A stretch of 16,544 nt of DNA, taken from a virus. Its lineage: Duplodnaviria > Heunggongvirae > Uroviricota > Caudoviricetes. The stretch is taken from IMG/VR virus record IMGVR_UViG_2695420569_000027, one strand, 5' to 3'. Shown piece by piece: positions 1 to 14,045 of the stretch. The translations under genes were made by a program, and so were the position numbers. Numbering within the stretch: the first letter of the stretch is position 1; each line of letters opens with the position of its first letter. The notes below the pieces were generated by a model. That model saw nothing but the letters and a program-made list of their open reading frames with translations. It searched no databases and was not told the origin of the DNA.

Positions 1-243
1 TCAGAAGTGACCGTCCAGGCGGTCACCGAACTCGATAATAAAGCGGCTCATTGCCATACGCCAGTCCCGCAGTGGCATCGTCCATTTCTGTGAAGCCGCC
101 TGGATTGCCAGCCACACGACCTTTTTCACTGAGTCATCCGTCGGGAACACCTTGCGTTTTTTGATGGCATGCCGGATTACGCTGTTCAGCGACTCGATGG
201 CGTTGGTTGTGTAGATGACTAGACTGGCCCCCTGAATCTCCAG
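1..243 (-). pseudogene. IS256-family (Mutator-type) transposase, 3'-terminal fragment; 5' part missing
   Basis: Minus-strand ORF ending at base 1; the C-terminal ~70 aa (YTTNAIESLNSVIRHAIKKRKVFPTDDSVKKVVWLAIQAASQKWTMPLRDWRMAMSRFIIEFGDRL) look like the conserved C-terminus of IS256-family transposases. The N-terminal 47 aa of the track ORF are low-complexity read-through. Fragment boundary is approximate. Confidence 0.55.
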
Positions 244-310
244 ACAACCAGTATCACTTAAATAAGTGATAGTCTTAATACTAGTTTTTAGACTAGTCAT
301 TGGAGAACAG

Positions 311-493
311 ATGATTGATGTCTTAGGGCCGGAGAAACGCAGACGGCGTACCACACAGGAAAAGATCGCAATTGTTCAGCAGAGCTTTGAACCGGGGATG
401 ACGGTCTCCCTCGTTGCCCGGCAACATGGTGTAGCAGCCAGCCAGTTATTTCTCTGGCGTAAGCAATACCAGGAAGGAAGTCTTACACATTGA
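311..493 (+). pseudogene. IS66-family accessory protein TnpA (orfA), 3'-truncated
   Basis: From the internal Met: [59 protein letters not shown], which matches my recollection of IS66/ISEc8-type orfA N-terminal halves. GGAG lies upstream of the ATG at 311. The reading frame stops 2 codons after the point where phoP sequence begins, so only ~60 of ~120 codons remain. Confidence 0.55.
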
Positions 494-593
494 TGTACTG
501 ATGGGACGTCTGCGCAAAAAAATTCAGGCACAATATCCGCAAGAAGTGATTACTACCGTTCGCGGCCAGGGCTATTTGTTCGAATTGCGCTGA
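488..593 (+). pseudogene. phoP: phoP 3'-terminal remnant (last ~35 codons of the PhoP response regulator)
   Basis: Codons 501-590 translate to [30 protein letters not shown] followed by TGA. This is the OmpR-family winged-helix C-terminus of PhoP, and its stop overlaps the phoQ ATG (ATGA at 591-595) as in the native operon. No receiver domain is present upstream. Confidence 0.75.
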
Positions 594-2053
594 TGAAAAA
601 ATTACTGCGTCTTTTTTTCCCGCTCTCACTGCGGGTACGTTTTCTGTTGGCAACGGCTGCGGTAGTACTGGTGCTTTCGCTTGCCTACGGAATGGTCGCG
701 CTGATCGGTTATAGCGTCAGTTTCGATAAAACTACGTTTCGGCTGTTACGTGGCGAGAGCAATCTGTTCTATACCCTTGCGAAGTGGGAAAACAATAAGT
801 TGCATGTCGAGTTACCCGAAAATATCGACAAGCAAAGCCCCACCATGACGCTAATTTATGATGAGAACGGGCAGCTTTTATGGGCGCAACGTGACGTGCC
901 CTGGCTGATGAAGATGATCCAGCCTGACTGGCTGAAATCGAATGGTTTTCATGAAATTGAAGCGGATGTTAACGATACCAGCCTCTTGCTGAGTGGAGAT
1001 CATTCGATACAGCAACAGTTGCAGGAAGTGCGGGAAGATGATGACGACGCGGAGATGACCCACTCGGTGGCAGTAAACGTCTACCCGGCAACATCGCGGA
1101 TGCCAAAATTAACCATTGTGGTGGTGGATACCATTCCGGTGGAGCTAAAAAGTTCCTATATGGTCTGGAGCTGGTTTATCTATGTGCTCTCAGCCAATCT
1201 GCTGTTAGTGATCCCGCTGCTGTGGGTCGCCGCCTGGTGGAGTTTACGCCCCATCGAAGCCCTGGCAAAAGAAGTCCGCGAACTGGAAGAACATAACCGC
1301 GAATTGCTCAATCCAGCCACAACGCGAGAACTGACCAGTCTGGTACGAAACCTGAACCGATTGTTAAAAAGTGAACGCGAACGTTACGACAAATACCGTA
1401 CGACGCTCACCGACCTGACCCATAGTCTGAAAACGCCACTGGCGGTGCTGCAAAGTACGCTGCGTTCTCTGCGTAGTGAAAAGATGAGCGTCAGTGATGC
1501 TGAGCCGGTAATGCTGGAGCAAATCAGCCGCATTTCACAGCAAATTGGCTACTACCTGCATCGTGCCAGTATGCGCGGCGGGACATTGCTCAGCCGCGAG
1601 CTGCATCCGGTCGCCCCACTGCTGGACAATCTCACCTCAGCGCTGAACAAAGTGTATCAACGCAAAGGGGTCAATATCTCTCTCGATATTTCGCCAGAGA
1701 TCAGCTTTGTCGGTGAGCAGAACGATTTTGTCGAGGTGATGGGCAACGTGCTGGATAATGCCTGTAAATATTGCCTCGAGTTTGTCGAAATTTCTGCAAG
1801 GCAAACCGACGAGCATCTCTATATTGTGGTCGAGGATGATGGCCCCGGTATTCCATTAAGCAAGCGAGAGGTCATTTTCGACCGTGGTCAACGGGTTGAT
1901 ACTTTACGCCCTGGGCAAGGTGTAGGGCTGGCGGTAGCCCGCGAAATCACCGAGCAATATGAGGGTAAAATCGTCGCCGGAGAGAGCATGCTGGGCGGTG
2001 CGCGGATGGAGGTGATTTTTAGTCGCCAGCATTCTGCGCCGAAAGATGAATAA
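593..2053 (+). CDS. phoQ: Sensor histidine kinase PhoQ
   Basis: 486-aa ORF with two transmembrane segments, a periplasmic acidic patch (EDDDDAE), a HAMP region, the H-box ([11 protein letters not shown]) and HATPase N/G boxes ([24 protein letters not shown]). It matches E. coli PhoQ essentially end to end. Confidence 0.97.
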
Positions 2054-2176
2054 ATATGTCCTTTTATCACCACACCAAGACAAGCCATTGATTTAATTAA
2101 ATAATCTTCACTGAAAAAAGTGCCAAAAATCGCAAATTGACTACACCATTAACTACACCGTTCGGTGCACCGTATG

Positions 2177-2202
2177 AAACAACGTGGAACAAATAGACAC
2201 AA
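2177..2202. repeat. Three GAACAA-type hexamers phased at 10 bp (site C), near the island's left end
   Basis: aaacaa at 2177, gaacaa at 2187, acacaa at 2197. The 15-mer aacaacgtggaacaa (2178-2192) is identical to 9642-9656. Confidence 0.35.
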
Positions 2203-2515
2203 GAAATATACAGGCGGATCATCTTTCCAGGGGGAAGCGCACCAATTCATGAGGGGCGTTAATGTCTATATGGGGATCCCCACCTACCGGAATTTTTTTC
2301 CGGTTAAACGTTAATCAGGCTGGTGGGCTTTACCTGTTCGGTAGGTGTTATGATTATCGTAATACCTTTCCCCCAATGGGGTAAAAGCATCAACCGTAAC
2401 GAAAGTCGTTATGGTTGCCACTGATACCCCAAATTTGGGTATCACGAGTAAGCCCCAAAATCTGGGTGTTACTCTTACTACCCAAACTACGGGTAGTTTC
2501 CGTAGTTTCATGGTC

Positions 2516-2535
2516 GAGTTGCAGATCTGCAACTC
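2516..2535. repeat. Perfect 20-bp palindrome GAGTTGCAGATCTGCAACTC
   Basis: Direct reading; the second half is the reverse complement of the first. It sits in a palindrome-dense non-coding stretch (2270-2640). Confidence 0.6.
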
Positions 2536-2789
2536 CCCCATTAACCACAGGCGAATTTCCGCCTTCGGTCATTCCTTAATCATCTGCGTAATCATAATGA
2601 TTATTCAGCAAGCGCAATTTTGCGCTTTGCTTAAAGTTCAGCGAGTTACCGCGCCGACTTCCTCAAATTGAGGTTTCCGAAAATATCAGCGGGTTAGCGA
2701 TTAAGCTGACCATTAATTAAACTGCGAAAATGTCGTAGTTGTGAGGGGTGTAGCCAACCCATTTTTGGGCCGTCGGGAATATCAACCAG

Positions 2790-3071
2790 TTACCGCCGCA
2801 ACCGCTCCGGCTTCTTCCAGTGGTACGTTATTTTCTCCTTCTCCCGATACATCTCCACGCGGCGACGGTAGGCCAGCAACTCAAGAACTCTGGTTCGTAT
2901 GTTGCGCATATCCACGCCATTAAGTTCTATACCATCACGGCGCATCACCTCAGCAACAACACGCGCATAGTTTTCGGCTGTCACGCTGTCCGGCTGCGTG
3001 GCCTGTTCGTCAGCCTGCTGGCTGATTCCGGCAACGCGGCGGATTAATCCCGTTATTTCGGCTTCTGTCAT
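2790..3071 (-). CDS. Hypothetical protein (93 aa) immediately downstream of terL
   Basis: ATG at 3071 with GAGG about 9 nt upstream; 13-nt gap after the terL stop. No family recognised. Confidence 0.4.
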   Translation of the reverse strand: MTEAEITGLIRRVAGISQQADEQATQPDSVTAENYARVVAEVMRRDGIELNGVDMRNIRTRVLELLAYRRRVEMYREKEKITYHWKKPERLRR

Positions 3072-3084
3072 GCTGCTGACCTCA

Positions 3085-4746
3085 TTACACCCCGCTAAAT
3101 TCTTCCAGTTTCTGGCGGTGGCTGTCGCTTATATCAAAAGCAAAATCCTCATGCTCTGCCTGGAATGTACCAAACGCCATCAGCGCCGCCACGCTCGGGT
3201 CTATCTTGTTCGGTGATTTTTTCTTGTTCGGCTTGATATTGGCGTTCGCGTCACTCTGCATCACGACGTTACTCATCGACCAGGACAACACCGGATCGCC
3301 ACGATGCACAATCACCCTGCGGTTAACAAAAACTTCGAACGATTTCGCCGCCGGACTGAATCTGAGGTAGGTTTGCGGGAACGGCTCCACCTCAAAACCT
3401 GCCCCCTGTAATTGCGTTCTGAGATGCGTGGCGTTCCACGTATCAAAGCCCACCAGCCTGATATTAAATTTCTCCGCGTCCTGCATGATGTCATCTCTGA
3501 TCCGGTCGTAATCAATGCAGTCGCCAGGCGTTGTGCGTATCCAGCCTGCTTTAGCCCACTGACGATAGATGGCGCGGTTTTTATTGGCGGGGTTCTGTAG
3601 CTGGAACTCCGGCAGATAATGACGGGAAACCAGCATAATGGTTTTACCTACCGGAAAGGCATAGCACACGCTGGAAATATCGCTTGTGGATGATAAATCC
3701 AGCCCCGCGTAACACTCCTGGCCGTGTAAATCTTCCTCCGTGAACGTTCCGGCACACTCAGCCCATGCGCCGTTACCCATCCACGGGGTAGTCCCCTGAC
3801 ACCAGATATTAAATCGCTTTGTCATCATCTCCACCCACTGCGACGGAATACCCCGCGCTTTCTGGATGGTTGAGGCCAGTTTTTCACGATCCACGGAAAC
3901 ATCAATATTAGGGTTCGCCTTTATCCACATCGCCGGATCATCAACCTCGTTTTCGTCGTCCAGTTCGTAAATCAGTACAAAAATTGAATCGTTAACCTCT
4001 TCGCCGTCCAGGATCTGGCAGCAATAATCATAGTGCTGCTTACAGGCTGAAACGACGTTGCTGCCTGATGTGGTAATGGCAAATAACAGCCCTTCGGGAC
4101 GTGCGCCCATCCCCAGCTCAAGCGCGGAATAAACGCCGTTATCGGGGTGCAAGTGGTATTCGTCCACGATGGAAAGGCTGGGGTTTGTTCCCTCGATGGT
4201 TGCCGCTTTTGCTGCCAGCGGCTTTAACAGGCTGTTGCTTTTCGGGTGTATCACCTTATGCGCCTGAATATTCACCCGCCTGCGTAACGGTCGGGATAAA
4301 AGGCACATCTGACGCGCATCATCAAAGACGATCCGCGCCTGGTCACGGCTCACCGCTGCGGTGTAGATATCCTGCTGACCGTTCTCCATAATCAGAAACC
4401 AGTTAGCCAGAATCGCGGCGGTCGTTGATTTCGCATTTTTGCGCGGCACTTCGATAAAGGCGCTCGTATATTTGCGCCGTCCGGTGGCCTTAACCTTAAA
4501 GCCGAGGATGCACGCAAAGGCGAACTGCTGCCACGGCTCCAGCTCAATGGGTCTGCCACGCATCGGCCCTTTTACGTGCGGGCACACCCTGGAAAAGGCA
4601 ATAAACCGATCCACAACCTCACGATCGAACGTGTAAAGGGGGCTTTTAAGGTCCGAAAAGTACCGTTTAACGGCCTGTTTCAGCCGTTTACAGGCCGGAA
4701 TTTTGCCCGTTTTTACGTCTTCTGCGTACTTATTCCAGGCGGTCAA
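3085..4746 (-). CDS. terL: Terminase large subunit (TerL), HK97-like
   Basis: 553 aa; N-terminal ATPase with a Walker A-like motif (VPRKNAKST) and a C-terminal nuclease region typical of Terminase_1-type TerL. The start is TTG at 4746 with GAGGA 5 nt upstream, overlapping the terS 3' end by 17 nt. Confidence 0.92.
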   Translation of the reverse strand: MTAWNKYAEDVKTGKIPACKRLKQAVKRYFSDLKSPLYTFDREVVDRFIAFSRVCPHVKGPMRGRPIELEPWQQFAFACILGFKVKATGRRKYTSAFIEVPRKNAKSTTAAILANWFLIMENGQQDIYTAAVSRDQARIVFDDARQMCLLSRPLRRRVNIQAHKVIHPKSNSLLKPLAAKAATIEGTNPSLSIVDEYHLHPDNGVYSALELGMGARPEGLLFAITTSGSNVVSACKQHYDYCCQILDGEEVNDSIFVLIYELDDENEVDDPAMWIKANPNIDVSVDREKLASTIQKARGIPSQWVEMMTKRFNIWCQGTTPWMGNGAWAECAGTFTEEDLHGQECYAGLDLSSTSDISSVCYAFPVGKTIMLVSRHYLPEFQLQNPANKNRAIYRQWAKAGWIRTTPGDCIDYDRIRDDIMQDAEKFNIRLVGFDTWNATHLRTQLQGAGFEVEPFPQTYLRFSPAAKSFEVFVNRRVIVHRGDPVLSWSMSNVVMQSDANANIKPNKKKSPNKIDPSVAALMAFGTFQAEHEDFAFDISDSHRQKLEEFSGV

Positions 4747-5086
4747 GCTCGTCCTCTTCTTCTGTTTCCGGTGGATTTTTACGGCGGCTTATCGGGTCAA
4801 AACCGAGCAAGGAGGCCATTTTTATCATCACTCTTTCCGCGTCGGATTTCGCGCTTAATGCGGGGTTTCTGCTCTCTCCGCCCTGACTGTTAACAATGCT
4901 GAACCCGCGCGCCGCAAGGTCTGCGACGGCTTTCCGGTATATCGAGTAATTGACGCAATACAGTTCCAGATTGCTCCAGTCGGCGGGAGTCAGGTCACCC
5001 CGTTCCGCAAGCTGCCGCGATTTTTCCCGCCACTGCTTCACGGCGATATCATCCAGGTAGGCGGGGGCTTTCGGTGGTCTTGCCAT
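4730..5086 (-). CDS. terS: Terminase small subunit (TerS), P27-family-like
   Basis: 118 aa, acidic C-terminus; the position directly upstream of and overlapping terL, and the sequence character, fit phage P27-family small terminases. Confidence 0.8.
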   Translation of the reverse strand: MARPPKAPAYLDDIAVKQWREKSRQLAERGDLTPADWSNLELYCVNYSIYRKAVADLAARGFSIVNSQGGESRNPALSAKSDAERVMIKMASLLGFDPISRRKNPPETEEEDELDRLE

Positions 5087-5089
5087 GCT

Positions 5090-5375
5090 TATTTTTTCGC
5101 CAGATTATTTTTCAAAAAATTCCCGTGCATAAAAATTTGAGGAGGCGGTCGGTGCCCGGCGGGGTCGGGTTTGTCCTGAAAACGCCCCCCACCCCGTCAT
5201 ACAGCCTCATCAGCGATTGCGGAAACATTCCATAACCTCGCGGTCACGGTCGGTTAATCGCTTCGCTGTGATGCGTTCTGCGCATCCTGACGCTTTATCT
5301 TTATGCCCTGTTTCCTGTGTCTTCCATGCGTCACGCTGCCTTATAAGTCCACGGATAAGGCGGTTTTGTTCCCGC
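5090..5375. other. Candidate cos / packaging-initiation region between HNH and terS
   Basis: A 290-bp non-coding gap with a GC-rich core (gaggaggcggtcggtgcccggcggggtcgggtttgtcc, ~5139-5177) flanked by AT-rich tracts. HK97-type cos phages place cos upstream of terS and need the adjacent HNH nuclease. This is inference only. Confidence 0.3.
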
Positions 5376-5816
5376 TCATTCATCAGCGTCATACATCCAG
5401 TTATTGCGGTTAGCGGCCCGTTCTTCCTCTTCACGAAATCCACCTGCGGCACGCTTACTTTTTGTTGCCGGATCAAGCCATTTCGTTTTCTGGTTATGGC
5501 ACGCCTGACACAATGGTTGATGGTTCCATTCGGGCCAGAAGAGAACATCATCACCGCCATTAATCGGGATAATGTGATCCACCACCACGGCGGGCGTATA
5601 TATCCCCTTCTCAAGGCATCGCACGCATAACGGGTTTTTACTCAGATACATGGCGCGGTATTTGTCCCACTGTCTGGAGTACCCACGCGCGCGGCGGTGT
5701 CCTCGTCTGGCATCCTCTGCACGCCATGCCGCCCGCCTGTGCTCCTCACACTTGCCGGACTTCACGCGCCTGTTACAGCCTGGTTCTGTGCATCGTCTTA
5801 ATGGTTGCCACGGCAT
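5376..5816 (-). CDS. HNH endonuclease (phage packaging-associated)
   Basis: 146 aa with Cys-rich zinc-binding motifs (CTEPGC, CVRC, CQAC) and the HNH core (VVVDHIIPINGG ... CHNQKT). The start overlaps the stop of the connector gene (TGATG). Confidence 0.88.
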   Translation of the reverse strand: MPWQPLRRCTEPGCNRRVKSGKCEEHRRAAWRAEDARRGHRRARGYSRQWDKYRAMYLSKNPLCVRCLEKGIYTPAVVVDHIIPINGGDDVLFWPEWNHQPLCQACHNQKTKWLDPATKSKRAAGGFREEEERAANRNNWMYDADE

Positions 5817-6112
5817 CAGTACACCCCCACATCACGGTAAGCCGTCCAGAGTGCACCAATCGTCATGGGTACGCGTGTTTTTGCGTTATCCGCGACAATC
5901 TGGCGATTTTCATACAGGTGAGCGATAAACATCATGCAGCCAATCTTTATGGCTGGCGTGAACTCCAGCCCGTCATCAAAGCGCCTGCCTATGTGTATCT
6001 GGCACGCCTCAAGCGATGCGGCAATGTATCCGCTGATTAACTGGTCTTCCTCGTCGCCATCGATGCGGCAATGGAGTTTCACTTCTTCCAGGGTGATAAG
6101 TTCTTCTGTCAT
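5816..6112 (-). CDS. Head-tail connector protein (gp6-like)
   Basis: 98 aa; the N-terminus LITLEEVKLHCRIDGDEED is typical of phage gp6-like head-tail connector (Phage_connect_1-type) proteins. ATGA overlap with the upstream gene. Confidence 0.7.
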   Translation of the reverse strand: MTEELITLEEVKLHCRIDGDEEDQLISGYIAASLEACQIHIGRRFDDGLEFTPAIKIGCMMFIAHLYENRQIVADNAKTRVPMTIGALWTAYRDVGVY

Positions 6113-6447
6113 TTTTCCGCGCCCTCACGACAAAGAATTTCAAGGCGTGTCCTGGCGGCATCCGGCAGCGGCTGCCCGATGATATTCAGTACACGCCCCG
6201 CCAGCGGCCCCGTATTGACCTTTATCCGGCTGGTGGCGTTGATGTCCTTCCTGTAGCGTATCCATACCCTTACCGTTCCAGTCGCCAGTTCTGCACCCGA
6301 TGAAATGGCCTCCTTGCTGCTGATCATGTTCACGCTTGCCCAGAGTGTGTGACCGTCCACCCACGTTTCGAGTATTTCGCCCGTCATGGCTCTGGTCTGT
6401 TTCAGGGTCTGAATCGTTACCCTGTCACGCAGTCGCCCTATGTTCAT
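6109..6447 (-). CDS. Head closure / head-tail adaptor protein (HK97 gp7-like)
   Basis: Start moved to the internal ATG at 6447 (MNIGRLRDRVTIQ...), which overlaps the portal stop (ATGA) and has GGGAGA about 10 nt upstream. Size and position fit a head-tail joining protein. Confidence 0.65.
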   Translation of the reverse strand: MNIGRLRDRVTIQTLKQTRAMTGEILETWVDGHTLWASVNMISSKEAISSGAELATGTVRVWIRYRKDINATSRIKVNTGPLAGRVLNIIGQPLPDAARTRLEILCREGAEK

Positions 6448-7655
6448 TCCGGTTTTTCTCCCTCGCTGATTTTTACTTCCTGTTTCCATGCCTGGCTGAA
6501 CTCATCACCACCATCACGCGGTGACAGTCCTTCACGTTCGCGGGCTTCGTTCGGACACATAACGCCGGATTTGATGCCGCGCTCATAGGTGGCAAAGCGT
6601 TCGCCAGGTGTGGCCCGTAACAGGTCCGCGCTGTCAAACTCCACCTGATACCGGATACCAGGTACAGGCGAGGCCACCAGCAGGGCGTTTTTTATCTGCT
6701 GCTCAAAGTTCGCCAGCCACGGGCGCATCGTCATGGTGAGAAATGCGCGGCTTGCCTCGCTGAAATTGCTGTAGGTGCTGTTGCTGTATTCCTGCAAAAA
6801 AATCGGCGAGACGTTGAACATTCTGGCGATGTCTTCAATGGTGAAGCGACGGGAGGCCAGCCATTCAGCATCCTGATTACTCATGCCCAGCTGCTGATAG
6901 CTCATACCCCCTTCAAGGATGGGCGTTTTTCCGGCGTTTCTGGCCCCTTTGTAGCGTTCCAGTGCGGCTAATGCCTGTTTGCCCTTCACGCCGTCCAGCC
7001 ATTCGCCTGACGTGATAACCCCTGCCGCCATCATGCCATCACGCATCACGCTCGCGCCGTGGCGTTGTTGGGCCAGCCCAAGCCCCAGCGATTCGCGGCA
7101 GATGGTTACAGGTGAGCGCCCCATAAAACCGTCATCCGTGGAGTAACGAAGGTGGAGAACCTCCCACGGTAAATAGTTGCGGGTGTTTCCGGTGTAGGCG
7201 TCAGTGATGCAGTAGCGCCAGTTATGCTCACCTGTCTGCTCAACGTTCACCGACTGCGGCGGGTAAGGATGCAAAGCGACCGGAAAACCATCACGCCCCC
7301 ACTGAATCACCGCATAAGCATTACCGTTTAACAGGCAGTGGCGGATCATCATTCGCTTAAACTGGTAGGGGGTTTGCCATGCGTTCGGGCGCTCGTTGAG
7401 GATGTGATCGACCGGATGAGAATCAAGCCACTCGCGGGCCTCCTTCCCCTTCTCATTGCGTACCAGGTACAGGTAACACGGCATGGTAGCCACCGCCTCA
7501 GAGATGACCGTCACGGCGTTCATGACGGCGGGCAGTGATTCCGCTGTCCCCGATGATACGTACTCACCCGCCCCCGTGTTCGATGTGCCAGCCAGCGCCA
7601 TAAACTCATCAAGCGTCATGCTGCGCTGCTCTTTTTTTCTTCTGAAAGGCCACAT
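6444..7655 (-). CDS. Portal protein, HK97 family
   Basis: 403 aa; its position between protease and adaptor and its sequence character fit HK97-family portals. Confidence 0.9.
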   Translation of the reverse strand: MWPFRRKKEQRSMTLDEFMALAGTSNTGAGEYVSSGTAESLPAVMNAVTVISEAVATMPCYLYLVRNEKGKEAREWLDSHPVDHILNERPNAWQTPYQFKRMMIRHCLLNGNAYAVIQWGRDGFPVALHPYPPQSVNVEQTGEHNWRYCITDAYTGNTRNYLPWEVLHLRYSTDDGFMGRSPVTICRESLGLGLAQQRHGASVMRDGMMAAGVITSGEWLDGVKGKQALAALERYKGARNAGKTPILEGGMSYQQLGMSNQDAEWLASRRFTIEDIARMFNVSPIFLQEYSNSTYSNFSEASRAFLTMTMRPWLANFEQQIKNALLVASPVPGIRYQVEFDSADLLRATPGERFATYERGIKSGVMCPNEAREREGLSPRDGGDEFSQAWKQEVKISEGEKPE

Positions 7656-7656
7656 A

Positions 7657-8229
7657 TCACCCCCCCGCTAAATCCGCCCACCAGCGGCGATTATCCGCAC
7701 GCGGCATTTTTTCGGGGTGCTGCTCATACAGGGAACGGCGGGCCAGCTCCACGTCGGAATCAGGGTAAGCCGGTACGGATGTGACGGTAATTTCGTACAG
7801 TTCCGCCACCAGCACGGTGCGCACGCATGGATCTGTTGTGGTATCCCATACATCCTTACGGGAACGAAAGCCAAAGCTCATGCCGGATATATCACCTCGT
7901 TTAACCAGTTCGATAACGTCGCGCCCTGTACTGGTATCCGGTGGGGTCAGTTCAAAGCGTAACCCTGTTTCGTCCTCTTCCAGTTTCAGCGTGCCGGAAC
8001 GGGTGCGCCCCAGTAACATGCTGTGGTCATGCTCATACAGGCCGCGAACGTCATTACCCGCCGCAAGCCATTCAGTAAACGCCCCCCGCTGGAATTTTTC
8101 GTAAAACTCACCCCATAACAGTTCTGAAAGCTTATCCCAGCGAACAATGTAGCCCGTCAGCGTACCGGCTCCGCTGGTGGTGATTTCCGATGACCGGATT
8201 TCCATACTCTTCATAATTTTTTCACCCAT
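7657..8229 (-). CDS. Prohead maturation protease, HK97 family (S78/U35)
   Basis: 190 aa with the GMSFGF motif region typical of HK97 prohead proteases. The start may instead be the ATG at 8214, which has GGTGA upstream. Confidence 0.88.
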   Translation of the reverse strand: MGEKIMKSMEIRSSEITTSGAGTLTGYIVRWDKLSELLWGEFYEKFQRGAFTEWLAAGNDVRGLYEHDHSMLLGRTRSGTLKLEEDETGLRFELTPPDTSTGRDVIELVKRGDISGMSFGFRSRKDVWDTTTDPCVRTVLVAELYEITVTSVPAYPDSDVELARRSLYEQHPEKMPRADNRRWWADLAGG

Positions 8230-8231
8230 AA

Positions 8232-8258
8232 AACACTAAAGGGGCTTTTAAGCCCCTT
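8232..8258 (-). terminator. Stem-loop between capsid and protease genes (possible partial terminator / attenuator)
   Basis: An 8-bp stem (8239-8246 pairs with 8251-8258, core ggggct/agcccc) with loop ttta, followed on the minus strand by UAGUGUUUUAUGGG. Confidence 0.35.
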
Positions 8259-8268
8259 CTGTATGCTA

Positions 8269-9426
8269 TTAATCGTCGTCCTGTGGCAGTTCCAGAATCT
8301 TGATCGCGTTCGAATCCACCACGCCACCGCCTAAATATTTCTGCGCGAAAATTTTGATGAAGCCCGGCTCTGTGAGGTTGTCCGGTCTGGTGCGAACACC
8401 TGTTTCGTGATCAACAATGTAGTAACCGCGTTTGAAGTCACCCAGGGCAATAACGTTATCCGGCATAAACTCCAGATATTCGACCGGAAGGCCCAGCAAC
8501 GTATCAGGATCACCCGCCTGTAAACGGTCACGCCAGATGTAATCACCGTTCGCGTTCTTCACCTTCTGGAGTTTTGCCGCCGTCGTGGAGTTAACCACCC
8601 AGACCGCGTTTTTGCGGTATTTTTTACGTAATGCAAATTTCAGGTCGATCAGCGGGTCCGCAGATGTCCACGCCAGAGATTCGGAAGGTTTAATTACCTG
8701 CAACGTACCAAAATCACGCTCTTTGTCGTTCTTCTCTGCACGGGGTACGGATAAAAAGCCTTTTGCTTTTTTGTCACCGTCGCCCACAACCAGATCGCTT
8801 TCTTCGGTTTCCGTGAAGGTGTCGCCAATCTCGCCCGTCAGCCATGAAAGGATGTCCACATCGGAAAAATCCACGATTTCCTGCGTGGTGCGCGGGTACG
8901 CATAGACCGGATACAGCTTAATGCTCACCTCGTTAATCTGCGGGGTGCTGGTCTGTTCGCGTGCCTTACCCTCTTCACCGTGGTTAACGGTCGCACCGCC
9001 AGCGGAAACAAGCTGCTTAAACTCGTTGCTGCTGATTTTCTTCACGGTACAGATGCGGCGCATGGTGGATTCATCCGTCAGCATTCGCATGATTTCGGTG
9101 TTCAGTTCGGGGATAACGGTATAACCACCATCAGCGGGAACGCCTGTACTCAATGCGCGGGTTTCACCTGTCAGAATGTAGTGACGTAGTTCGGCGGGGT
9201 CAGTGGTCTGGCTGTTTTTGCCTGGTTTACTGCGCTCTTCGTCAGCAACGGCCTCAAGGCGGGAGATGTCTTTATCGAGGGATTCAGCTTTAGCGCGTAA
9301 TTCGTCAAATTTTGCGCCCTCAGCATCGTTAAGGCTGCGGTTTTCTTTTTCCGCGTTCTCCAGCATGTCGCGCATCTGATTTTTAATGGCGGTTTTCTGC
9401 TGGCGTAATTCGATTATTCTCGGCAT
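8269..9426 (-). CDS. Major capsid protein, HK97 fold, with N-terminal delta/scaffold-like domain
   Basis: About 385 aa from the ATG at 9426 (the track ORF begins at an upstream GTG at 9474). The N-terminal ~100 aa are coiled-coil rich, like an HK97 delta domain, followed by a capsid core. Confidence 0.9.
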   Translation of the reverse strand: MPRIIELRQQKTAIKNQMRDMLENAEKENRSLNDAEGAKFDELRAKAESLDKDISRLEAVADEERSKPGKNSQTTDPAELRHYILTGETRALSTGVPADGGYTVIPELNTEIMRMLTDESTMRRICTVKKISSNEFKQLVSAGGATVNHGEEGKAREQTSTPQINEVSIKLYPVYAYPRTTQEIVDFSDVDILSWLTGEIGDTFTETEESDLVVGDGDKKAKGFLSVPRAEKNDKERDFGTLQVIKPSESLAWTSADPLIDLKFALRKKYRKNAVWVVNSTTAAKLQKVKNANGDYIWRDRLQAGDPDTLLGLPVEYLEFMPDNVIALGDFKRGYYIVDHETGVRTRPDNLTEPGFIKIFAQKYLGGGVVDSNAIKILELPQDDD

Positions 9427-9517
9427 AAAAAAAGTCCTGAAGTTAAGTAAGGAACTCCAGGACGCGGCAAACACTCAACCGTTTTTCATAAGGAAATCAG
9501 CAATCGCACCGATCGTT

Positions 9518-9563
9518 TTCCCGCCTGGTAATGAATATTGGCGGGCACATTAACAGGCGGGAA
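9518..9563. promoter_or_regulatory. 10-bp inverted repeat (ttcccgcctg / caggcgggaa) in the capsid-operon leader
   Basis: 9518-9527 is the exact reverse complement of 9554-9563; the 26-bp spacer contains a partial ggcggg copy. Confidence 0.25.
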
Positions 9564-9640
9564 AGTGGCCCCAGCGTCCTGGCACCACGGGCGAGAATAA
9601 TCATGATTCAGTTCGGGTAAAATATGCCGATCCGGTCAGC

Positions 9641-9666
9641 GAACAACGTGGAACAACCACGAACAA
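9641..9666. repeat. Three GAACAA hexamers at exact 10-bp phasing (site B), upstream of the capsid operon
   Basis: gaacaa at 9641, 9651 and 9661. 17 of 18 bases match the reverse complement of 15223-15240, and 15 of 15 match 2178-2192. Confidence 0.4.
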
Positions 9667-9684
9667 ATAATTTACAAAACATGA

Positions 9685-9707
9685 CAAAAAGCCGGATTGC
9701 TCCGGCT
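9685..9707 (-). terminator. Rho-independent terminator after the PerC-like gene
   Basis: Minus-strand RNA AGCCGGA-GCAA-UCCGGCU (7-bp GC-rich stem, GNRA-type loop) followed by UUUUUGU. Confidence 0.55.
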
Positions 9708-9713
9708 GTGTGA

Positions 9714-9986
9714 TTATCTGTCCTGGTAATTTCGCCATATTTCATCACCAGCACCATCCATACCCATTTCGGCATAAGTGCGATCGACCGCCTTTTTCAG
9801 GTCTCCGTAATTATCCGGCGGCTCCGGTGGCCTCTGTGCCTTCCTGGAACATTCCAGCCGTCGCATCGTGATGTGATGCCGTTCCTTGTCTGTCTCCACC
9901 AGTTGCATGACTTCACCCCATCGCGCCGACGCTCTCCGGTAAAAGCCTTTCGCCTCCAGTTCTTCCGCTATGCGGTCATGTACCAT
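9714..9986 (-). CDS. PerC-family-like transcriptional activator (putative)
   Basis: From the ATG at 9986: MVHDRIAEELEAKGFYRRASARWGEVM..., which matches my recollection of the PerC/Pch signature (LE.KG..RRA..RW). The ssb stop is 13 nt upstream. Confidence 0.5.
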   Translation of the reverse strand: MVHDRIAEELEAKGFYRRASARWGEVMQLVETDKERHHITMRRLECSRKAQRPPEPPDNYGDLKKAVDRTYAEMGMDGAGDEIWRNYQDR

Positions 9987-9998
9987 CGTCCCCACCCC

Positions 9999-10409
9999 TC
10001 AGAACGGAATATCATCACCGTAAGGGTCATCGCCTCCCGCTGGTGGCTGATTACCCTGTGTGCCTGTGGTCTTGCGTCGGCTCCCACCAAGACGTGCCGC
10101 ACGGGCACTGATTACGCTGTCTGCAATAACCTGATAACCCTGCCGCGTTTCCCCGTTCTGTCCGGTCCACTGGCTGACCTGCATCGTGCCGGATACGCTG
10201 GCAACGTCGCCTTTTTGATGTTTAGCCAGGAAGTCGGCCTGCTTACCAAATGCGATGACCGATAGCCATAACGTCGCCTGTCCATCCTGTGCCTGGCTGC
10301 ATGGCAGCGATACCGCCATACGCGCCAGCGTCATCGGTGTACCCTTGCTGGTCTGTTTTACCTGCGGGTCGTCCACCAGCCGCCCGTAAGCTGCAATTTG
10401 TGCTGTCAT
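9999..10409 (-). CDS. ssb: Single-stranded DNA-binding protein
   Basis: 136 aa with an OB-fold-like N-terminus, a Gly/Pro-rich linker and the hallmark acidic tail ending DDIPF. GAGGTG lies 6 nt upstream of the ATG. Confidence 0.92.
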   Translation of the reverse strand: MTAQIAAYGRLVDDPQVKQTSKGTPMTLARMAVSLPCSQAQDGQATLWLSVIAFGKQADFLAKHQKGDVASVSGTMQVSQWTGQNGETRQGYQVIADSVISARAARLGGSRRKTTGTQGNQPPAGGDDPYGDDIPF

Positions 10410-10418
10410 ATTGCCACC

Positions 10419-10724
10419 TCAGTGAAGCGATCCGGCGTTGTTCTTTTTCATCTCTTCCATCATTTTTTCAGTGAGCATTACGCACTGAAAACCCATGTTT
10501 TTGATGTCTACGGGCTTCATGCCTTTATCAGTGGATATCACAGGCAGAATATCCTGATACACATCGCGGTCAGGGTAACTAAGCACACAAAGCGCCCATG
10601 ATGCCACGGGTGAGGATCCTTCGTCTGTTTCAACCCACCAGCCTGGTGTAGCTGCGCTTATTTGCTGAATCGTGATCCGTCCGTTGTGCTTGTAAAGTTT
10701 TTCACCAAATTTTGGTTCGCTCAT
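10419..10724 (-). CDS. Hypothetical protein (101 aa)
   Basis: ATG at 10724 with GGAGAG 8 nt upstream, overlapping the upstream stop (ATGA). No family recognised. Confidence 0.5.
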   Translation of the reverse strand: MSEPKFGEKLYKHNGRITIQQISAATPGWWVETDEGSSPVASWALCVLSYPDRDVYQDILPVISTDKGMKPVDIKNMGFQCVMLTEKMMEEMKKNNAGSLH

Positions 10725-10972
10725 GATTCCAACTCTCCGGTTTTAACGTTGATGGTTGTTACCTGTTCCGCTTCGGCAATCTCCCGTTCTGTCAGCGTGG
10801 CAAAGTTTGCCGCCGCCGTGGTCATGAATGCGCTTATCAGGTCGGGATGTTCCTTCGCGTATCCTTCCCGCGTGTGGCGGTCTATCGTTCTGATTGCCAC
10901 CTTTAAGGTGTGCTCAGTCATGTCTAACGCTTTATATTTTGGCTCTGTTCTGTCTCTGCGTTTTTGGGTCAT
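10721..10972 (-). CDS. Hypothetical protein (~83 aa)
   Basis: Start moved to the ATG at 10972 (GAGAGG upstream), because the track's GTG-initiated N-terminus is translated from the iteron repeats. Confidence 0.4.
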   Translation of the reverse strand: MTQKRRDRTEPKYKALDMTEHTLKVAIRTIDRHTREGYAKEHPDLISAFMTTAAANFATLTEREIAEAEQVTTINVKTGELES

Positions 10973-10984
10973 TTCTCGCAACCT

Positions 10985-11174
10985 CTCACTTTTTCGCCTC
11001 ACTTTTTCAAGCGTCTCACTTCGTCGCAGTTGGGATTTTCGGTTTTTCTATGTGTGTGTTTCATAAGTATTTTTTCACCCCTCACTTTTGAGGATGTATA
11101 CAGGTCGAAAAGTGAGGGGGAGCGGGCTAATTTTGGCCCTCTTTCTATCCCCCTCGCTTTTGCTCCTCACTTTT
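10985..11174. repeat. Iteron cluster (CTCACTTTT) flanking an AT-rich core: candidate replication origin
   Basis: CTCACTTTT at 10985, 10998, 11081 and 11166; variants at 11015 and 11153; an inverted copy (aaaagtgag) at 11108. An AT-rich tgtgtgtgtt tract lies between the clusters. The whole region is immediately 3' of the rep gene. Confidence 0.5.
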
Positions 11175-12573
11175 ATAGCGGCGCTACATCATCCCCATCG
11201 ATACGAATAACCCCATCTTTTTCCAGCTTGTACAGCCAGCGCCGGAAGTTTTTCATTTCATACCCCAGCTTTTTCATGTCATCACGTAACATCTGGATCG
11301 TGCACTTGTCGCCGTTCTGTGTGCGTGAACGGATGCACCCCCATAGCGCGGTATGGTTTTCCGTCTTGTTCCCTGCCTCCTCGATGCGCTCCAGTTCAAC
11401 AGGAGGGCGCGGATCATCCACCACCACCAGCGACGTGATTAATTCACCGTCAGCGTCGGTAAAAAGCTCCACCACGCGTAAGTCATATGCGGCTTCTTTG
11501 AGTTCCTCCGCGTCCTTCATTTTGGTGCATGAGATAACCAGCGCTTCGCTTCCTGCGTCCTCCCTGCGTATCCGGTATTCAGCATCCAGCGAAGCACGAA
11601 ATGCACTGGAACCGCGCGCGCCTTTCGTCTCATCCTTGCCGGAATGGTGAACCACCAGCACCGTGGCCCCTGTGCGTCGTTTCAGTTCGTCACAACCACG
11701 GATAAACGCCCCCATATCACGGGAATCATTTTCATCATTCCCACCAAAGCAACGCGCCAGCGTATCCAGAATAATCATGCGTACAGGTTTACCCGTTTCC
11801 CGCTCCACCTGACGGGCAGCGATAACCATTTCATCAACATCAAGCGGGGCAGCCGGAAAGATGGGGCGGTTTACCAGATACAGATTTTTCACCTGCTCAT
11901 CGTGCACAACCTCCCAGGCTTTTACACGACGCGGAACACCTATACCGCCTTCACCAACCACATAGAGAACCGCACCATGTGCAACCCTGCGGCCTCCCCA
12001 CTGGCGACCAGTGGCAACATGGCACGCCCACGATCCGGCAAGGAATGATTTATAGGACCCGCTAGCCCCGTATATGCTGCATAGCGATACCGCCGGAATA
12101 ATCCCCTTAACCACGTAATCCAGTTGCGTGTCGTATCCGGTAGATCCAACGCTCATCGGTAGCGTGGTTTTTCGCTGGTGGTTTTTTTCTTCCGCCGGCT
12201 CTTTCCCGCGCACCCGTTCCAGGTATTCGCGCCAGTTCTCCCGCATATGGCTGTGCATCCCTTCGGGGTAATAATTCGCATCAGTTACGCCCGCCGCCGC
12301 CAGCTTGTGCGCAATGGCATTAATATTTGATGGCCTGATGTGGCCTGCCTTGTACAGCCGGACACAATAGCGCCCCTCGTCGATGATTCTCAGGTCTGCC
12401 AGTTCATCCAGTTGATCATCAGCCAGCACAATGGGAGGCACATTATCGCCAGCCAGTCGCCCGTCCTGTTCCTGCCACTGTTTCGCATGTGCCCACGCAT
12501 CACTACCCGCAAAAATGATGACTTCGGTCATCTTGTCGTAAGGCTGTTTTTTTAAGTTCGGTGCGCTTTTCAT
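11173..12573 (-). CDS. Replication initiator with AAA_25 / RecA-like ATPase domain (PICI Rep-like)
   Basis: 466 aa with Walker A (GASGSYKSF), Walker B-like (MIILDTLARCF) and the HHSGKD motif typical of RepA/AAA_25 replication ATPases. Which satellite Rep subfamily it belongs to is not resolved. Confidence 0.8.
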   Translation of the reverse strand: MKSAPNLKKQPYDKMTEVIIFAGSDAWAHAKQWQEQDGRLAGDNVPPIVLADDQLDELADLRIIDEGRYCVRLYKAGHIRPSNINAIAHKLAAAGVTDANYYPEGMHSHMRENWREYLERVRGKEPAEEKNHQRKTTLPMSVGSTGYDTQLDYVVKGIIPAVSLCSIYGASGSYKSFLAGSWACHVATGRQWGGRRVAHGAVLYVVGEGGIGVPRRVKAWEVVHDEQVKNLYLVNRPIFPAAPLDVDEMVIAARQVERETGKPVRMIILDTLARCFGGNDENDSRDMGAFIRGCDELKRRTGATVLVVHHSGKDETKGARGSSAFRASLDAEYRIRREDAGSEALVISCTKMKDAEELKEAAYDLRVVELFTDADGELITSLVVVDDPRPPVELERIEEAGNKTENHTALWGCIRSRTQNGDKCTIQMLRDDMKKLGYEMKNFRRWLYKLEKDGVIRIDGDDVAPL

Positions 12574-12869
12574 TTCTTGCCCCTGAATCCGTTAACCATG
12601 GTTTTCAGCTTCTGGATGTTTGCCCGTGCCCTGGCGTTGCTGGTGGGCACGTTATGCGGCGCGGTCTGTACCAGAGAAAAATCACGCCGGAACTGATAAA
12701 CAGGCATCACGCAATCATATTCGTAACCTTCACGGCGGTAGGTTACGCGCCGTTCTTCCACGCCCTTAATCATTACCGTGCCGCCGTACTGGTCGCGGTA
12801 AATATCACCGCGCGTAAATTTAGGGTGAGTGTTGCCACTGGCAGTTAAGCCAGAATATTTAAGTTTCAT
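12570..12869 (-). CDS. Hypothetical protein (99 aa)
   Basis: Stop overlaps the rep start (ATGA); part of the tightly packed operon. Confidence 0.5.
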   Translation of the reverse strand: MKLKYSGLTASGNTHPKFTRGDIYRDQYGGTVMIKGVEERRVTYRREGYEYDCVMPVYQFRRDFSLVQTAPHNVPTSNARARANIQKLKTMVNGFRGKK

Positions 12870-12874
12870 TATTT

Positions 12875-13108
12875 TTATTCTCCGGTGTGCTGTTCTTTAT
12901 ATCTGTCGTGCAATAGATCTATTTCTTGCAGTTCCATTATTACAGGCTCAAGAAGCGTTATTAATGCCGTGGCAATTCTTGATTTTTGTTTGTCGCGTTC
13001 ATTGTCGCCAAGTGTTTCAAGCCATATGCGCAATATTTCCAGCATGTTTTCACTGTGAGAAAGTGCAAGAAATGCGCGGTCTATTGTTTGGTGGTAAATA
13101 TCACGCAT
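12875..13108 (-). CDS. Hypothetical protein (77 aa)
   Basis: Overlaps the upstream gene by 8 nt; predicted helical. Confidence 0.45.
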   Translation of the reverse strand: MRDIYHQTIDRAFLALSHSENMLEILRIWLETLGDNERDKQKSRIATALITLLEPVIMELQEIDLLHDRYKEQHTGE

Positions 13109-13957: not shown

Positions 13958-14045
13958 AACGGCTCCTAGTTTACGTTGTTGGTTAGACGCCCCGTATGTG
14001 TTCCCAGCACTGCGGGGCGTTGATTTTTGTGTAATGGCAAGTACA

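What the first reader, a model, noticed from the sequence alone, without database searches (positions are those of the whole stretch)
2270..2640. Palindrome-dense non-coding block at the island's left terminus
Within about 370 bp there is a run of strong dyads: GGGGATCCCC (2272-2281), ccggaa/ttccgg (2288-2304), a 10-bp-stem hairpin (2392-2416), a near-perfect 22-bp palindrome around cccaaatttggg (2422-2444), three copies of an ACCC(C)AAA-N-GGGT motif about 27 bp apart, aaactac-ggg-tagttt, the perfect 20-bp palindrome at 2516-2535 and agcgcaa/ttgcgct (2611-2626). None looks like a classical terminator and no credible ORF covers them. This could be a structured ncRNA, a set of arm or accessory-protein sites for recombination, or a packaging or immunity element.
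Basis: seen in the sequence. Interest (0 to 1): 0.5.

Follow-up and report, generated by a model that had tools for sequence, protein, structure and literature searches.

The report
Conserved hairpin module ending E. coli PICIs
The palindrome-rich stretch is the non-coding tail of a phage satellite (a capsid-forming PICI) inserted next to phoQ, and its centre is a ~120-base module that many E. coli satellites share almost unchanged, for a purpose not yet known.

Summary
Bases 2270-2640 hold 11 dyads with stems of at least 6 bp, against about 1 in shuffles, and no other part of the window comes close. It is not one element. The window is E. coli phoQ followed by a capsid-forming PICI. The finding sits in the 737-nt non-coding tail between the island's last gene (orf93, 2790-3071, minus strand) and the int-distal att junction (2052-2061).

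The tail has three layers:
- An integrase-specific attP arm (2054-2333).
- A core module (2418-2540). Its inner 84 nt are 96-100% identical in PICIs of different packaging types and insertion sites, while third codon positions of neighbouring orf93 are only 70-75% identical.
- Decayed ~48-nt units of a short hairpin plus an IHF consensus box (2604-2795).

The core always lies downstream of orf93 in the same orientation. In most islands an intrinsic terminator follows it. It occurs in about 40% of orf93-bearing tails and is absent from the functional prototype EcCICFT073. It is not cos, not an Rfam family, shows no protein-coding signature and is absent from phage records.

Best reading (confidence about 0.33): an optional structured 3'-UTR and insulator module of the late operon. 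An IHF-bound DNA site is a close rival.

The parts
2052..2061 (.). att identity block AAATATGTCC at the int-distal junction; it overlaps the phoQ stop codon
   Evidence: The same 10-mer occurs at both island ends in L001 and in EcCICFT073 (L078).
2054..2333 (.). Integrase-specific attP arm block. It contains an IHF consensus (2081-2093, minus strand), tandem arm-type repeats ATTRACTACACC x2 (2136-2159), GGGGATCCCC (2272-2281), hairpin 2286-2304 and a Chi site (2319-2326).
   Evidence: It is 90% identical to the tail of EcCICFT073 at the same insertion site. The AACTACACC repeats are also found next to int and were detected by TRF. The IHF pattern is and the Chi site.
2370..2416 (.). Lineage-specific hairpins: CCCCCAATGGGG (2370-2381) and a 10-bp-stem hairpin (2392-2416)
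   Evidence: They are present only in window-type ('type A') tails. Other PICIs carry unrelated sequence here.
2418..2540 (-). Conserved core module shared by E. coli/Shigella PICIs. Its parts are dyad TGATACCC/GGGTATCA (2422-2444), an IHF-like site AATCTGGGTGTTA (2459-2471), dyad AAACTAC/GTAGTTT (2484-2499), the direct repeat GTAGTTTC x2 (2493-2509) and a 20-bp palindrome (2516-2535).
   Evidence: There are 803 places in 706 of 5426 E. coli genomes. The inner 84 nt are 96-100% identical where orf93 third codon positions are 70-75% identical. Searches give the alignment and per-site map. Orientation relative to orf93 is fixed. The strand given is the sense strand of the operon.
2549..2568 (.). 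GC-rich hairpin remnant: a flipped, tail-less copy of the intrinsic terminator that follows the core in most other PICIs
   Evidence: It matches the L003 terminator in inverted orientation. The terminator itself was detected in L004 and L002.
2604..2795 (.). Four decayed ~48-nt units of a short covarying hairpin plus a box AATATCARCNNGTTA (IHF consensus at 2684-2696 and 2780-2792). The last unit overlaps the orf93 stop codon.
   Evidence: Repeat families D2, D4 and D11 are. The IHF pattern gives 6 hits against 1.06 expected. The box lies beside the orf93 stop in all PICI types. The hairpin stems differ between islands but stay complementary.
2790..3071 (-). orf93, the last gene of the late/packaging operon (phrog_1561, function unknown). 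It is the constant upstream partner of the core.
   Evidence: The family occurs at 2012 places in 1567 E. coli genomes. Only Shigella was found among GTDB species representatives.

Best explanation
The block is the untranslated tail of a capsid-forming PICI. It lies between the last late-operon gene (orf93) and the att junction beside phoQ. Its palindrome density comes from three stacked layers:
- the outer part of the integrase-specific attP arm;
- a ~120-bp core module that E. coli PICIs exchange horizontally;
- decayed copies of a 'short hairpin + IHF box' unit that normally follows the orf93 stop codon.

The core most likely works in cis as the structured 3' end of the long late transcript. 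When a helper phage induces the island, RNA polymerase reads through orf93 into the core, which folds into three or four consecutive hairpins. In the common arrangement an intrinsic terminator follows about 35 nt later.

Together with IHF-bent DNA, this module would do two things. It would protect the 3' end of the late mRNA. It would also insulate what lies beyond: host genes while the island is integrated, and attP plus int (about 0.5 kb downstream on the same strand) once it has excised into a circle.

Shown here: the location, fixed orientation, conservation, fold stability and the terminator in relatives. Inferred: that the core is transcribed, that IHF binds, and the insulating or stabilising role.
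For: - The window is phoQ plus a cf-PICI; FORC_042 is 99.5% identical.
- The core always lies 46-786 nt downstream of an orf93 homologue, with the palindrome on the orf93 side, in 66 of 68 loci.
- In L004 and L002 the scan finds an intrinsic terminator-like site on the operon-sense strand just after the core: 11 pairs, 8 of them G-C, tail TACTTATTGT. The same GC hairpin lies beside the core in 31 of 49 distinct variants.
- The core folds far better than shuffles in all three lineages, with z between -3.2 and -8.3.
- The three dyads survive in the 75%-identical helper-embedded lineage. One change there is a G-C to A-T double substitution. The base of the palindrome hairpin is extended by different flanking bases in different lineages.
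- No promoter-like site lies in or next to the core, so it would be transcribed only by read-through.
- In the excised 10.8-kb circle (L004) the core and terminator sit about 0.5 kb upstream of int on the same strand.
- In L075 the core lies between convergent genes, abi and orf93.
- The core is optional, which fits a modular tail rather than an essential site: 803 places against 2012 for orf93, and none in EcCICFT073.
Against: - Conservation is uniform over the inner 84 nt, linkers included. A stabiliser or terminator needs only stems, so something reads the primary sequence.
- The core hairpins have no U-tracts. In this window no terminator follows the core; the GC hairpin is flipped and lies on the other side.
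- G.U versus A.C asymmetries do not consistently favour either strand.
- RNAalifold gives different structures for the two strands, with almost no true covariation.
- The long hairpin and the inner stem predicted in this window are broken in the diverged lineage.
- Perfect palindromes with zero or 2-nt centres, together with clustered IHF consensus sites, are more typical of DNA sites.
- No expression data were available.
Confidence: 0.33

Rival explanations
1. The core is a double-stranded DNA site. It would be a nucleoprotein platform in which IHF bends the DNA between palindromes bound by dimeric proteins, for example orf93 or another protein common to E. coli PICIs. Such a platform might help a DNA transaction such as transfer, concatemer processing or recombination.
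For: - The IHF consensus WATCARNNNNTTR is about 60-fold enriched in the tail: 3 of the 6 window hits, with 1.06 expected for the whole window.
- A consensus box sits at the orf93 stop in every PICI type.
- The site in the middle of the core has one mismatch to the consensus in most variants and none in the diverged lineage.
- Palindromes with zero or 2-nt centres are kept as palindromes.
- Conservation is uniform at the primary-sequence level.
- The motifs occur only once in the island.
- The core is constantly linked to orf93.
- A packaging-module 'hypothetical gene 1792' of EcCIEDL933 is needed for efficient transfer, though it is not established that this gene is orf93.
Against: - Three different palindromes would need three specificities.
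- Distances to att (about 0.2 to 1 kb) and to orf93 (46-786 nt) vary freely.
- A 9-bp indel between two of the dyads is tolerated.
- EcCICFT073 excises, replicates and transfers without the core.
- The orf93 model has low confidence (pLDDT 70) and no fold match.
- The first dyad is missing in some copies.
Confidence: 0.27
2. The core is a trans-acting non-coding RNA carried as optional cargo. It would be a 3'-UTR-derived small RNA released from the late transcript on induction, acting on helper-phage or host mRNAs.
For: - It is optional and horizontally exchanged, like accessory cargo.
- It sits at the accessory hotspot after the packaging module that the cf-PICI authors describe.
- Primary sequence is conserved beyond what the structure needs.
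- In most islands it lies just upstream of an intrinsic terminator, the usual layout of 3'-UTR small RNAs.
- A satellite small RNA acting on its helper is known for the Vibrio PLE (abstract listed).
Against: - The terminator tail is not a clean U-run.
- In this window the core is not followed by a terminator.
- About 85 invariant nucleotides is far more than a seed region needs.
- No phage record shows similarity on either strand.
- No expression data were available, and there is no Rfam family.
Confidence: 0.1
3. The core has no function of its own. It would be a shared stretch that persists because PICIs recombine through it, and the surrounding dyads would be scars of repeated module swapping.
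For: - The breakpoints of the mosaic fall at the edges of the core.
- The orf93 3' flank is present as several decayed copies.
- Some islands carry tandem copies of the core 434 nt apart.
- Hairpins are found flipped.
- A Chi site adjoins the core in many tails, and the island as a whole is Chi-rich.
- The core is absent from 60% of tails.
Against: Recombination alone does not prevent drift. The inner core is 96-100% identical where synonymous sites 50-300 nt away are 25-30% diverged. Even the 75%-identical lineage keeps all three dyads.
Confidence: 0.15
4. The core encodes a small protein on the plus strand: 2411-2671 here (86 aa), and 50-61 aa in other lineages, with the conserved part ..TDT..LGI.SKPQNLGVTLTTQTTGSF..VELQICNS.
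For: - This is the only one of six frames open in all 49 variants, including the 75%-identical lineage.
- The 9-nt indel seen in two lineages keeps the frame.
- Three changes inside the palindrome in the diverged lineage are synonymous in this frame.
- An ATG is present in the three main lineages.
Against: - 18 substitutions are synonymous and 43 are not, against 22.8% synonymous expected by chance, so dN/dS is about 0.7.
- There is no Shine-Dalgarno sequence.
- The start is missing in some copies and the stop position is not conserved.
- Gene finders rarely call it: 16 small clusters, mostly at contig ends, all from E. coli.
- There are no Pfam or PHROG hits.
- The 9-nt indel equals one unit of a 9-nt direct repeat, so it keeps the frame by construction.
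Confidence: 0.06
5. The core belongs to attP as arm or accessory sites, or to the packaging site.
For: - The core contains four ACTAC half-sites resembling the AACTACACC arm-type repeats.
- IHF sites are typical of both attP and cosB.
Against: - The same core occurs at several different insertion sites: phoQ, clpS, fis, thiM, tqsA and prophage late genes.
- The AACTACACC repeats are found in only a minority of core-bearing loci.
- An abi gene separates the core from att in L075.
- cos probably maps to the HNH-terS gap or, in other types, to lambda-like cosN sites elsewhere.
- EcCICFT073 integrates and packages without the core.
Confidence: 0.04

Closest known systems
Intrinsic terminators and structured 3' UTRs at the ends of phage and satellite late operons; lambda sib retroregulation as the classic att-linked case (own knowledge)
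   Same: It is a cluster of stable stem-loops at the 3' end of a long operon, next to att. Like sib, its linkage to int differs between the integrated and excised states. A terminator follows the core in most relatives.
   Different: The core hairpins have no U-tracts. In PICIs int points inward, so the module lies upstream of int in the circle, not downstream as sib does. Conservation is at the level of primary sequence. No RNase III-type long duplex is present.
IHF-containing nucleoprotein sites: lambda attP arms, cosB (R3-I1-R2-R1), P1 parS, and E. coli RIP/BIME elements (palindrome-IHF-palindrome) (own knowledge)
   Same: Dyads flank a central IHF-like site, further IHF consensus boxes lie nearby, and the module sits at the 3' end of a transcription unit, as RIP elements do.
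   Different: There is no sequence similarity to REP, cosB or parS. The core is not at a fixed distance from att or cos. It is restricted to PICIs rather than dispersed in the chromosome.
EcCICFT073 and EcCIEDL933, the prototype E. coli PICI and cf-PICI (PMC6092414, PMC6739421, bioRxiv 10.1101/2022.09.08.507074)
   Same: The island type is the same. EcCICFT073 has the same insertion site (phoQ-roxA), the same attP arm (90% identity over 2054-2333) and the same last gene, orf93. O157:H7 genomes carry a 98.9% match to almost the whole tail.
   Different: EcCICFT073 lacks the core module. None of the papers I could read describes or prints this non-coding element.
P4 CI/seqA immunity RNA (Rfam C4, isrK), reported in some Gram-negative PICIs (PMC10111431)
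   Different: There is no Rfam hit at gathering or relaxed thresholds. CI/seqA lie in the early 'Bro' zone near alpA, not at the late end.

Membership tests
Rho-independent (intrinsic) terminator | G+C-rich stem-loop immediately followed by a U-run on the transcribed strand | tested here: not met
   The scan of 2000-3100 finds none inside 2270-2640. The feature is met by the hairpin that follows the core in relatives L004 and L002, but the copy in this window (2549-2568) is flipped and has no tail.
attP arm of a tyrosine integrase | Arm-type repeats on both sides of the core, IHF sites, and sequence that co-varies with integrase and insertion site | tested here: met
   This is met for 2054-2333. 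AACTACACC x2 occurs at 2136-2159 and again next to int, an IHF consensus lies at 2081-2093, and the block is shared only with islands at the same site. Only 2270-2333 of the finding falls in this block.
attP arm of a tyrosine integrase | The same criteria applied to the core module 2418-2540 | tested here: not met
   The core is the same at six or more different insertion sites. Its distance from att varies, and an abi gene lies between them in L075.
cos packaging site (lambda type or HK97/HNH type) | cosN sequence or mapped genome ends, and a position next to terS | tested here: not met
   No lambda cosN is present in the window tail. Lambda-like cosN lies upstream of terS/rpp in L002 and L078. 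The virion-derived record LR881103.1 starts 22 nt before terS, which places cos near 5087-5210. This assumes that the record starts at a physical DNA end.
Known RNA families (Rfam 15, including C4/isrK) | Covariance-model score at or above the gathering threshold | tested here: not met
   There are no hits at gathering threshold in the whole window. At E <= 10 only two chance-level hits appear.
Structured RNA in general | Compensatory base changes that support a common fold | tested here: inconclusive
   Only two or three double changes were seen: the outermost pair of the first dyad, the central pair of the palindrome, and the short hairpin next to orf93. The family is limited to Escherichia/Shigella and has three shallow lineages.
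Protein-coding gene | Excess of synonymous change, a conserved start and stop, and homologues | tested here: not met
   Synonymous to non-synonymous changes are 18 to 43, against 22.8% synonymous expected. Ends are variable. Only 16 clusters exist, all E. coli. There are no Pfam or PHROG hits.
IHF binding site | Match to WATCARNNNNTTR with an A/T-rich 5' flank, and binding by IHF | tested here: inconclusive
   The consensus is matched at 2081, 2684 and 2780 and is enriched. The site inside the core has one mismatch here and none in L075. Binding cannot be tested with these tools.
Iteron-type replication origin | Direct repeats next to the rep gene, specific to the Rep type | tested here: not met
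   The core is shared by islands with RepA-helicase, P4-type primase and DUF5906 replication genes. It lies about 8.6 kb from rep, and the motifs occur only once.

The most novel reading that the evidence does not exclude
The core, with its terminator, could be a switch that senses the topological state of the island. While the island is integrated it simply ends the late operon. After excision the same module sits about 0.5 kb upstream of int-alpA on the same strand. There it would decide whether late transcripts run across attP into the integration and regulation genes of the circle or concatemer. This would be the geometric mirror of lambda sib retroregulation. A variant of the idea is a put-like RNA that lets polymerase ignore the terminator that follows it. 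A further variant is that orf93 binds the core to boost satellite transfer.
Probability: 0.12. Interest if true: 0.7.

Novelty: new variant of a known kind. Interest (0 to 1): 0.4.

Why it matters
PICIs and cf-PICIs are major vehicles of gene transfer and anti-phage defence in E. coli. Their cis-acting sites other than att, ori and cos are essentially unmapped.

The core is an ~85-120-bp non-coding module kept nearly base-for-base across satellites that differ in integrase, replicase and packaging strategy. It occurs in about 13% of complete E. coli genomes. That makes it a clear, cheap target for experiment: delete it in EcCIEDL933 and measure late-mRNA 3' ends, int read-through and transfer.

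It also marks the inner boundary of the accessory-gene hotspot at the end of these islands, which helps annotation and the engineering of synthetic PICIs.

If the core turns out to be only a tail, terminator or recombination linker, the finding is ordinary. The practical value is then the corrected map of the island end.

Tried and rejected
- **Rfam.** No family matched at gathering or relaxed thresholds.
- **tRNA/tmRNA.** None found.
- **Phage records.** No similarity to 50,697 records, so this is not a borrowed helper site.
- **Plasmids.** Hits were only chromosomal fragments or an excised PICI circle.
- **orf93 function.** Pfam gave nothing and PHROG only an unknown family. The AlphaFold model had pLDDT 70 and Foldseek against PDB gave nothing below E = 2.
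- **Wider orf93 relatives for covariation.** The family is essentially Escherichia/Shigella. There are 36 representatives at 50% identity, mostly fragments, and one locus among GTDB species representatives.
- **More divergent cores by pattern scans of viral contigs.** Only three lineages turned up; the other 16-mer hits were chance matches.
- **RNAalifold on 28 variants.** The structures were unstable and strand-dependent.
- **Motif recurrence elsewhere in the island.** None found, so no second site or operator set.
- **TRF for the ~48-nt units.** They are too decayed to score.
- **Coding tests.** These are given under the small-protein rival. The minus-strand ORF (2541-2311) is truncated in other lineages.
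- **Logan contigs carrying the ORF.** They are genomic, not transcripts.
- **Literature.** No paper held in the library prints the core sequence or describes it. I could not establish whether 'gene 1792' of EcCIEDL933 is orf93.
- **Considered from memory and dropped for lack of any match.** These were LexA, CRP and lambda/434 operators, dif/cer, Ter, oriT nic regions, integron attC and P1 pac/parS.

Full report
**1. What the window is**

Bases 593-2053 encode phoQ. From about 2052 to the end of the window runs an island whose genes are all on the minus strand:
- integrase (15315-16544) and a RepA-type helicase;
- HK97-type capsid, protease and portal; head-closure and connector proteins;
- HNH endonuclease, P27-family TerS and TerL (3085-4746);
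- a last 93-codon gene, here called orf93 (2790-3071).

E. coli FORC_042 carries the same arrangement at 99.5% identity between phoQ and roxA. This gene set is that of a capsid-forming phage-inducible chromosomal island, or cf-PICI (bioRxiv 10.1101/2022.09.08.507074). The prototype PICI EcCICFT073 sits at the same chromosomal site. The finding lies inside the 737-nt non-coding stretch between the phoQ stop codon and orf93.

**2.

All the listed dyads are present. The interval 2270-2640 has 11 distinct dyads with stems of at least 6 bp, against 1.07 +/- 1.06 in 2000 dinucleotide shuffles. Four have stems of at least 8 bp, against 0.07 expected. The densest windows of the whole 16.5 kb all fall here. 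Single-strand folding of 2370-2545 gives z-scores of -8.1 and -9.7 on the two strands.

**3. The island end and the attP arm**

The 10-mer AAATATGTCC occurs at 2052-2061, overlapping the phoQ stop codon. It occurs again between int and roxA in both FORC_042 and CFT073, so it is the att identity block.
- An IHF consensus lies at 2081-2093.
- A tandem pair of AACTACACC-type repeats lies at 2136-2159, with a second pair directly upstream of int. This is the layout of arm-type integrase sites.
- The whole of 2054-2333 is 90% identical to the EcCICFT073 tail and to nothing else in islands at other sites, apart from the short arm-repeat region.

So the first about 60 nt of the finding, with GGGGATCCCC and the ccggaa/ttccgg hairpin, belong to an integrase-specific attP arm. 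GGGGATCCCC is kept in EcCICFT073; the ccggaa/ttccgg dyad is not.

**4. The core module**

A megablast of the tail against 5,426 complete E. coli genomes showed that one piece, 2418-2540, is found alone at about 94% identity in hundreds of genomes. It lies at the int-distal end of quite different islands:
- a TerS/capsid/decoration PICI beside clpS that has a lambda-type cosN elsewhere (L002);
- a cf-PICI at fis (L003) and another at thiM (L077);
- a 10.8-kb circular 'plasmid' that is an excised PICI carrying a DUF1441-family gene (L004);
- helper-embedded PICIs inside prophage capsid or terminase genes (L075, L079).

A dedicated search counts 803 places in 706 genomes. In 66 of 68 loci recovered by pattern search, an orf93 homologue lies 46-786 nt to the right, most often 46-49 nt, always in the same relative orientation.

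The inner 84 nt (2452-2535) are 96-100% identical in loci where orf93 is only about 80-85% identical and its third codon positions are 70-75% identical. A per-site map shows only four commonly variable positions. The module therefore evolves more slowly than both synonymous and non-synonymous positions of the gene beside it.

It is nevertheless optional. orf93 homologues occur at 2,012 places in 1,567 genomes. EcCICFT073, which excises, replicates and transfers (PMC6092414, PMC6739421), lacks the core.

**5. What inside the core is conserved**

Three lineages exist: the window type, a commoner 'type B', and a 75%-identical lineage in helper-embedded PICIs. The diverged lineage keeps these features:
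- the arms GATACC/GGTATC of the first dyad, with a variable A/T-rich centre;
- AAACTAC-NN-GTAGTTT;
- the 20-bp palindrome, including a G-C to A-T double change at its centre;
- the stretch TTACTACCCAAACTAC.

It loses the second and third ACCC-N7-GGGT copies and the long hairpin predicted in the window.

Other points:
- The central AATCTGGGTGTTA is one mismatch from the IHF consensus. In the diverged lineage it matches fully.
- A 9-nt unit of the direct repeat GTAGTTTC(C/A) is missing in two lineages. The first dyad is replaced in a few copies.
- The 2-nt centre of one dyad and the whole GC hairpin are found flipped in some variants. This points to palindrome-mediated inversion at the DNA level.

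**6. The rest of the tail**

In type B an intrinsic terminator-like hairpin (11 pairs, tail TACTTATTGT) follows the core on the operon-sense strand. The core therefore lies in the 3' UTR of orf93. In the window this hairpin is flipped, has no tail, and lies on the orf93 side of the core (2549-2568).

Between it and orf93 lie four decayed ~48-nt units. Each has a short hairpin whose stem differs between islands but stays complementary (ACGCA/TGCGT, GTGCA/TGCAC, ACCCA/TGGGT, CCTCA/TGAGG). Each also has a box AATATCARCNNGTTA. This box matches the IHF consensus. It lies at the orf93 stop codon in every PICI type, and EcCICFT073 has three copies. The tail is thus a mosaic, and its breakpoints lie at the edges of the core.

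**7. What it is not**

*cos.* A virion-derived cf-PICI record starts 22 nt upstream of terS, which places cos in the HNH-terS gap (about 5087-5210 here). Lambda-type cosN sites of other PICIs lie upstream of their terS/rpp genes.

*A known RNA family or a sequence shared with phages.* There are no such matches.

*Part of attP.* See section 4.

*An origin.* The core is independent of Rep type and occurs only once in the island.

*A convincing gene.* The plus-strand ORF 2411-2671 is the only frame open in all variants. However:
- substitutions are 18 synonymous to 43 non-synonymous, against 22.8% synonymous expected;
- starts and stops are not conserved;
- gene finders almost never call it;
- there are no homologues outside E. 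coli.

**8. How it most likely works**

I cannot settle this with sequence alone. The facts to explain are these:
- fixed co-orientation downstream of the last late gene;
- a terminator after the core in most islands;
- no promoter of its own;
- stable hairpins in every lineage;
- optional presence;
- a position at the inner edge of the variable region after the packaging module, where accessory genes are expected and where L075 carries a convergent abi gene.

The most economical reading is a structured 3'-end and insulator module of the late operon, as set out under the best explanation (confidence about 0.33).

The weak point is the uniform conservation of primary sequence, which stems alone do not explain. 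The enrichment of IHF consensus sites also points to DNA. An IHF-bent DNA site bound by orf93 or another shared protein is therefore a close rival (about 0.27). The remaining options are:
- a trans-acting 3'-UTR-derived RNA (about 0.10);
- a functionless recombination linker (about 0.15);
- a small protein (about 0.06);
- attP or cos roles (about 0.04).

**9. Comparison and novelty**

The island type, its insertion site and its attP arm are known biology. None of the papers I could read describes the core module. No paper in the library prints its sequence, and it has no Rfam family.

I rate it a new variant of a known kind: a non-coding terminal module of a phage satellite. Interest is moderate at 0.4. 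The conservation is striking and directly testable, but the module is lineage-restricted, optional and of unproven function.

Noticed in passing
window 2319-15660: Chi (GCTGGTGG) occurs 17 times inside the island, 8 on the plus strand and 9 on the minus, and not at all in the phoP-phoQ part of the window (1-2053). Shuffles give 0.64. About 3 would be expected at the E. coli average of one per ~4.5 kb (from memory). EcCICFT073 (11 in 11.3 kb) and the excised circle L004 (9 in 10.8 kb) are also enriched, against 3 in 15 kb of host flank. This may protect linear or rolling-circle satellite DNA from RecBCD. I found no report of it.
   Followed up: partly
window 2604-2795; L078 14389-14560: A perfect IHF consensus box (TATCAACCAGTTA and variants) overlaps or directly follows the orf93 stop codon in every E. 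coli PICI type examined. It is repeated 2-4 times in some tails together with a short covarying hairpin.
   Followed up: partly
window ~5087-5210: The HNH-terS gap probably holds the cos site of the cf-PICI. The record LR881103.1 ('phage vB_KppS-Ant', 16.5 kb) is itself a cf-PICI deposited as a phage. It starts 22 nt before terS and lacks both orf93 and the core.
   Followed up: partly
L004 (NZ_CP148328.1, whole record): A 10,790-bp 'plasmid' of E. coli Z1323HEC0475 is an excised, circular PICI with int, primase, a protease-capsid fusion, DUF1441 and orf93. It shows the attP joint and places the core about 0.5 kb upstream of int.
   Followed up: partly
L011, L021, L033, L050 (viral contigs): Some islands carry two copies of the core 434 nt apart in the same orientation, with different flanks. 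These look like remnants of tandem islands or module stacking.
   Followed up: no
L075 5103-5864; L075 6001-6109: A helper-embedded PICI inside a prophage major-capsid gene carries an 'abortive infection family' gene between att and the core, convergent with orf93. This shows that the accessory hotspot lies outside the core.
   Followed up: no
window 2516-2535: Because the 20-bp palindrome reads the same on both strands, both strands encode the peptide ELQICNS in one frame. The plus-strand ORF (2411-2671) and the minus-strand ORF (2541-2311) share third codon positions, so codon-phase arguments cannot separate them.
   Followed up: yes
L101 versus L075; L003 and window 2549-2568: The 2-nt centre of AAACTAC-NN-GTAGTTT is CT in some helper-embedded variants and AG, its reverse complement, in others. 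The GC-rich terminator hairpin also occurs in both orientations. Both suggest hairpin-mediated inversion.
   Followed up: no
proteins P0139, P0147: Two proteins of about 2,100-2,200 residues match orf93 residues ~8-66 in 8-11 repeated stretches at 27-31% identity. I did not examine them, and the match may be a compositional artefact.
   Followed up: no
window 2541-2549: TTAACCACA, 8 of 9 matches to the DnaA box TTATCCACA (consensus from memory), directly follows the palindrome in window-type tails only.
   Followed up: no
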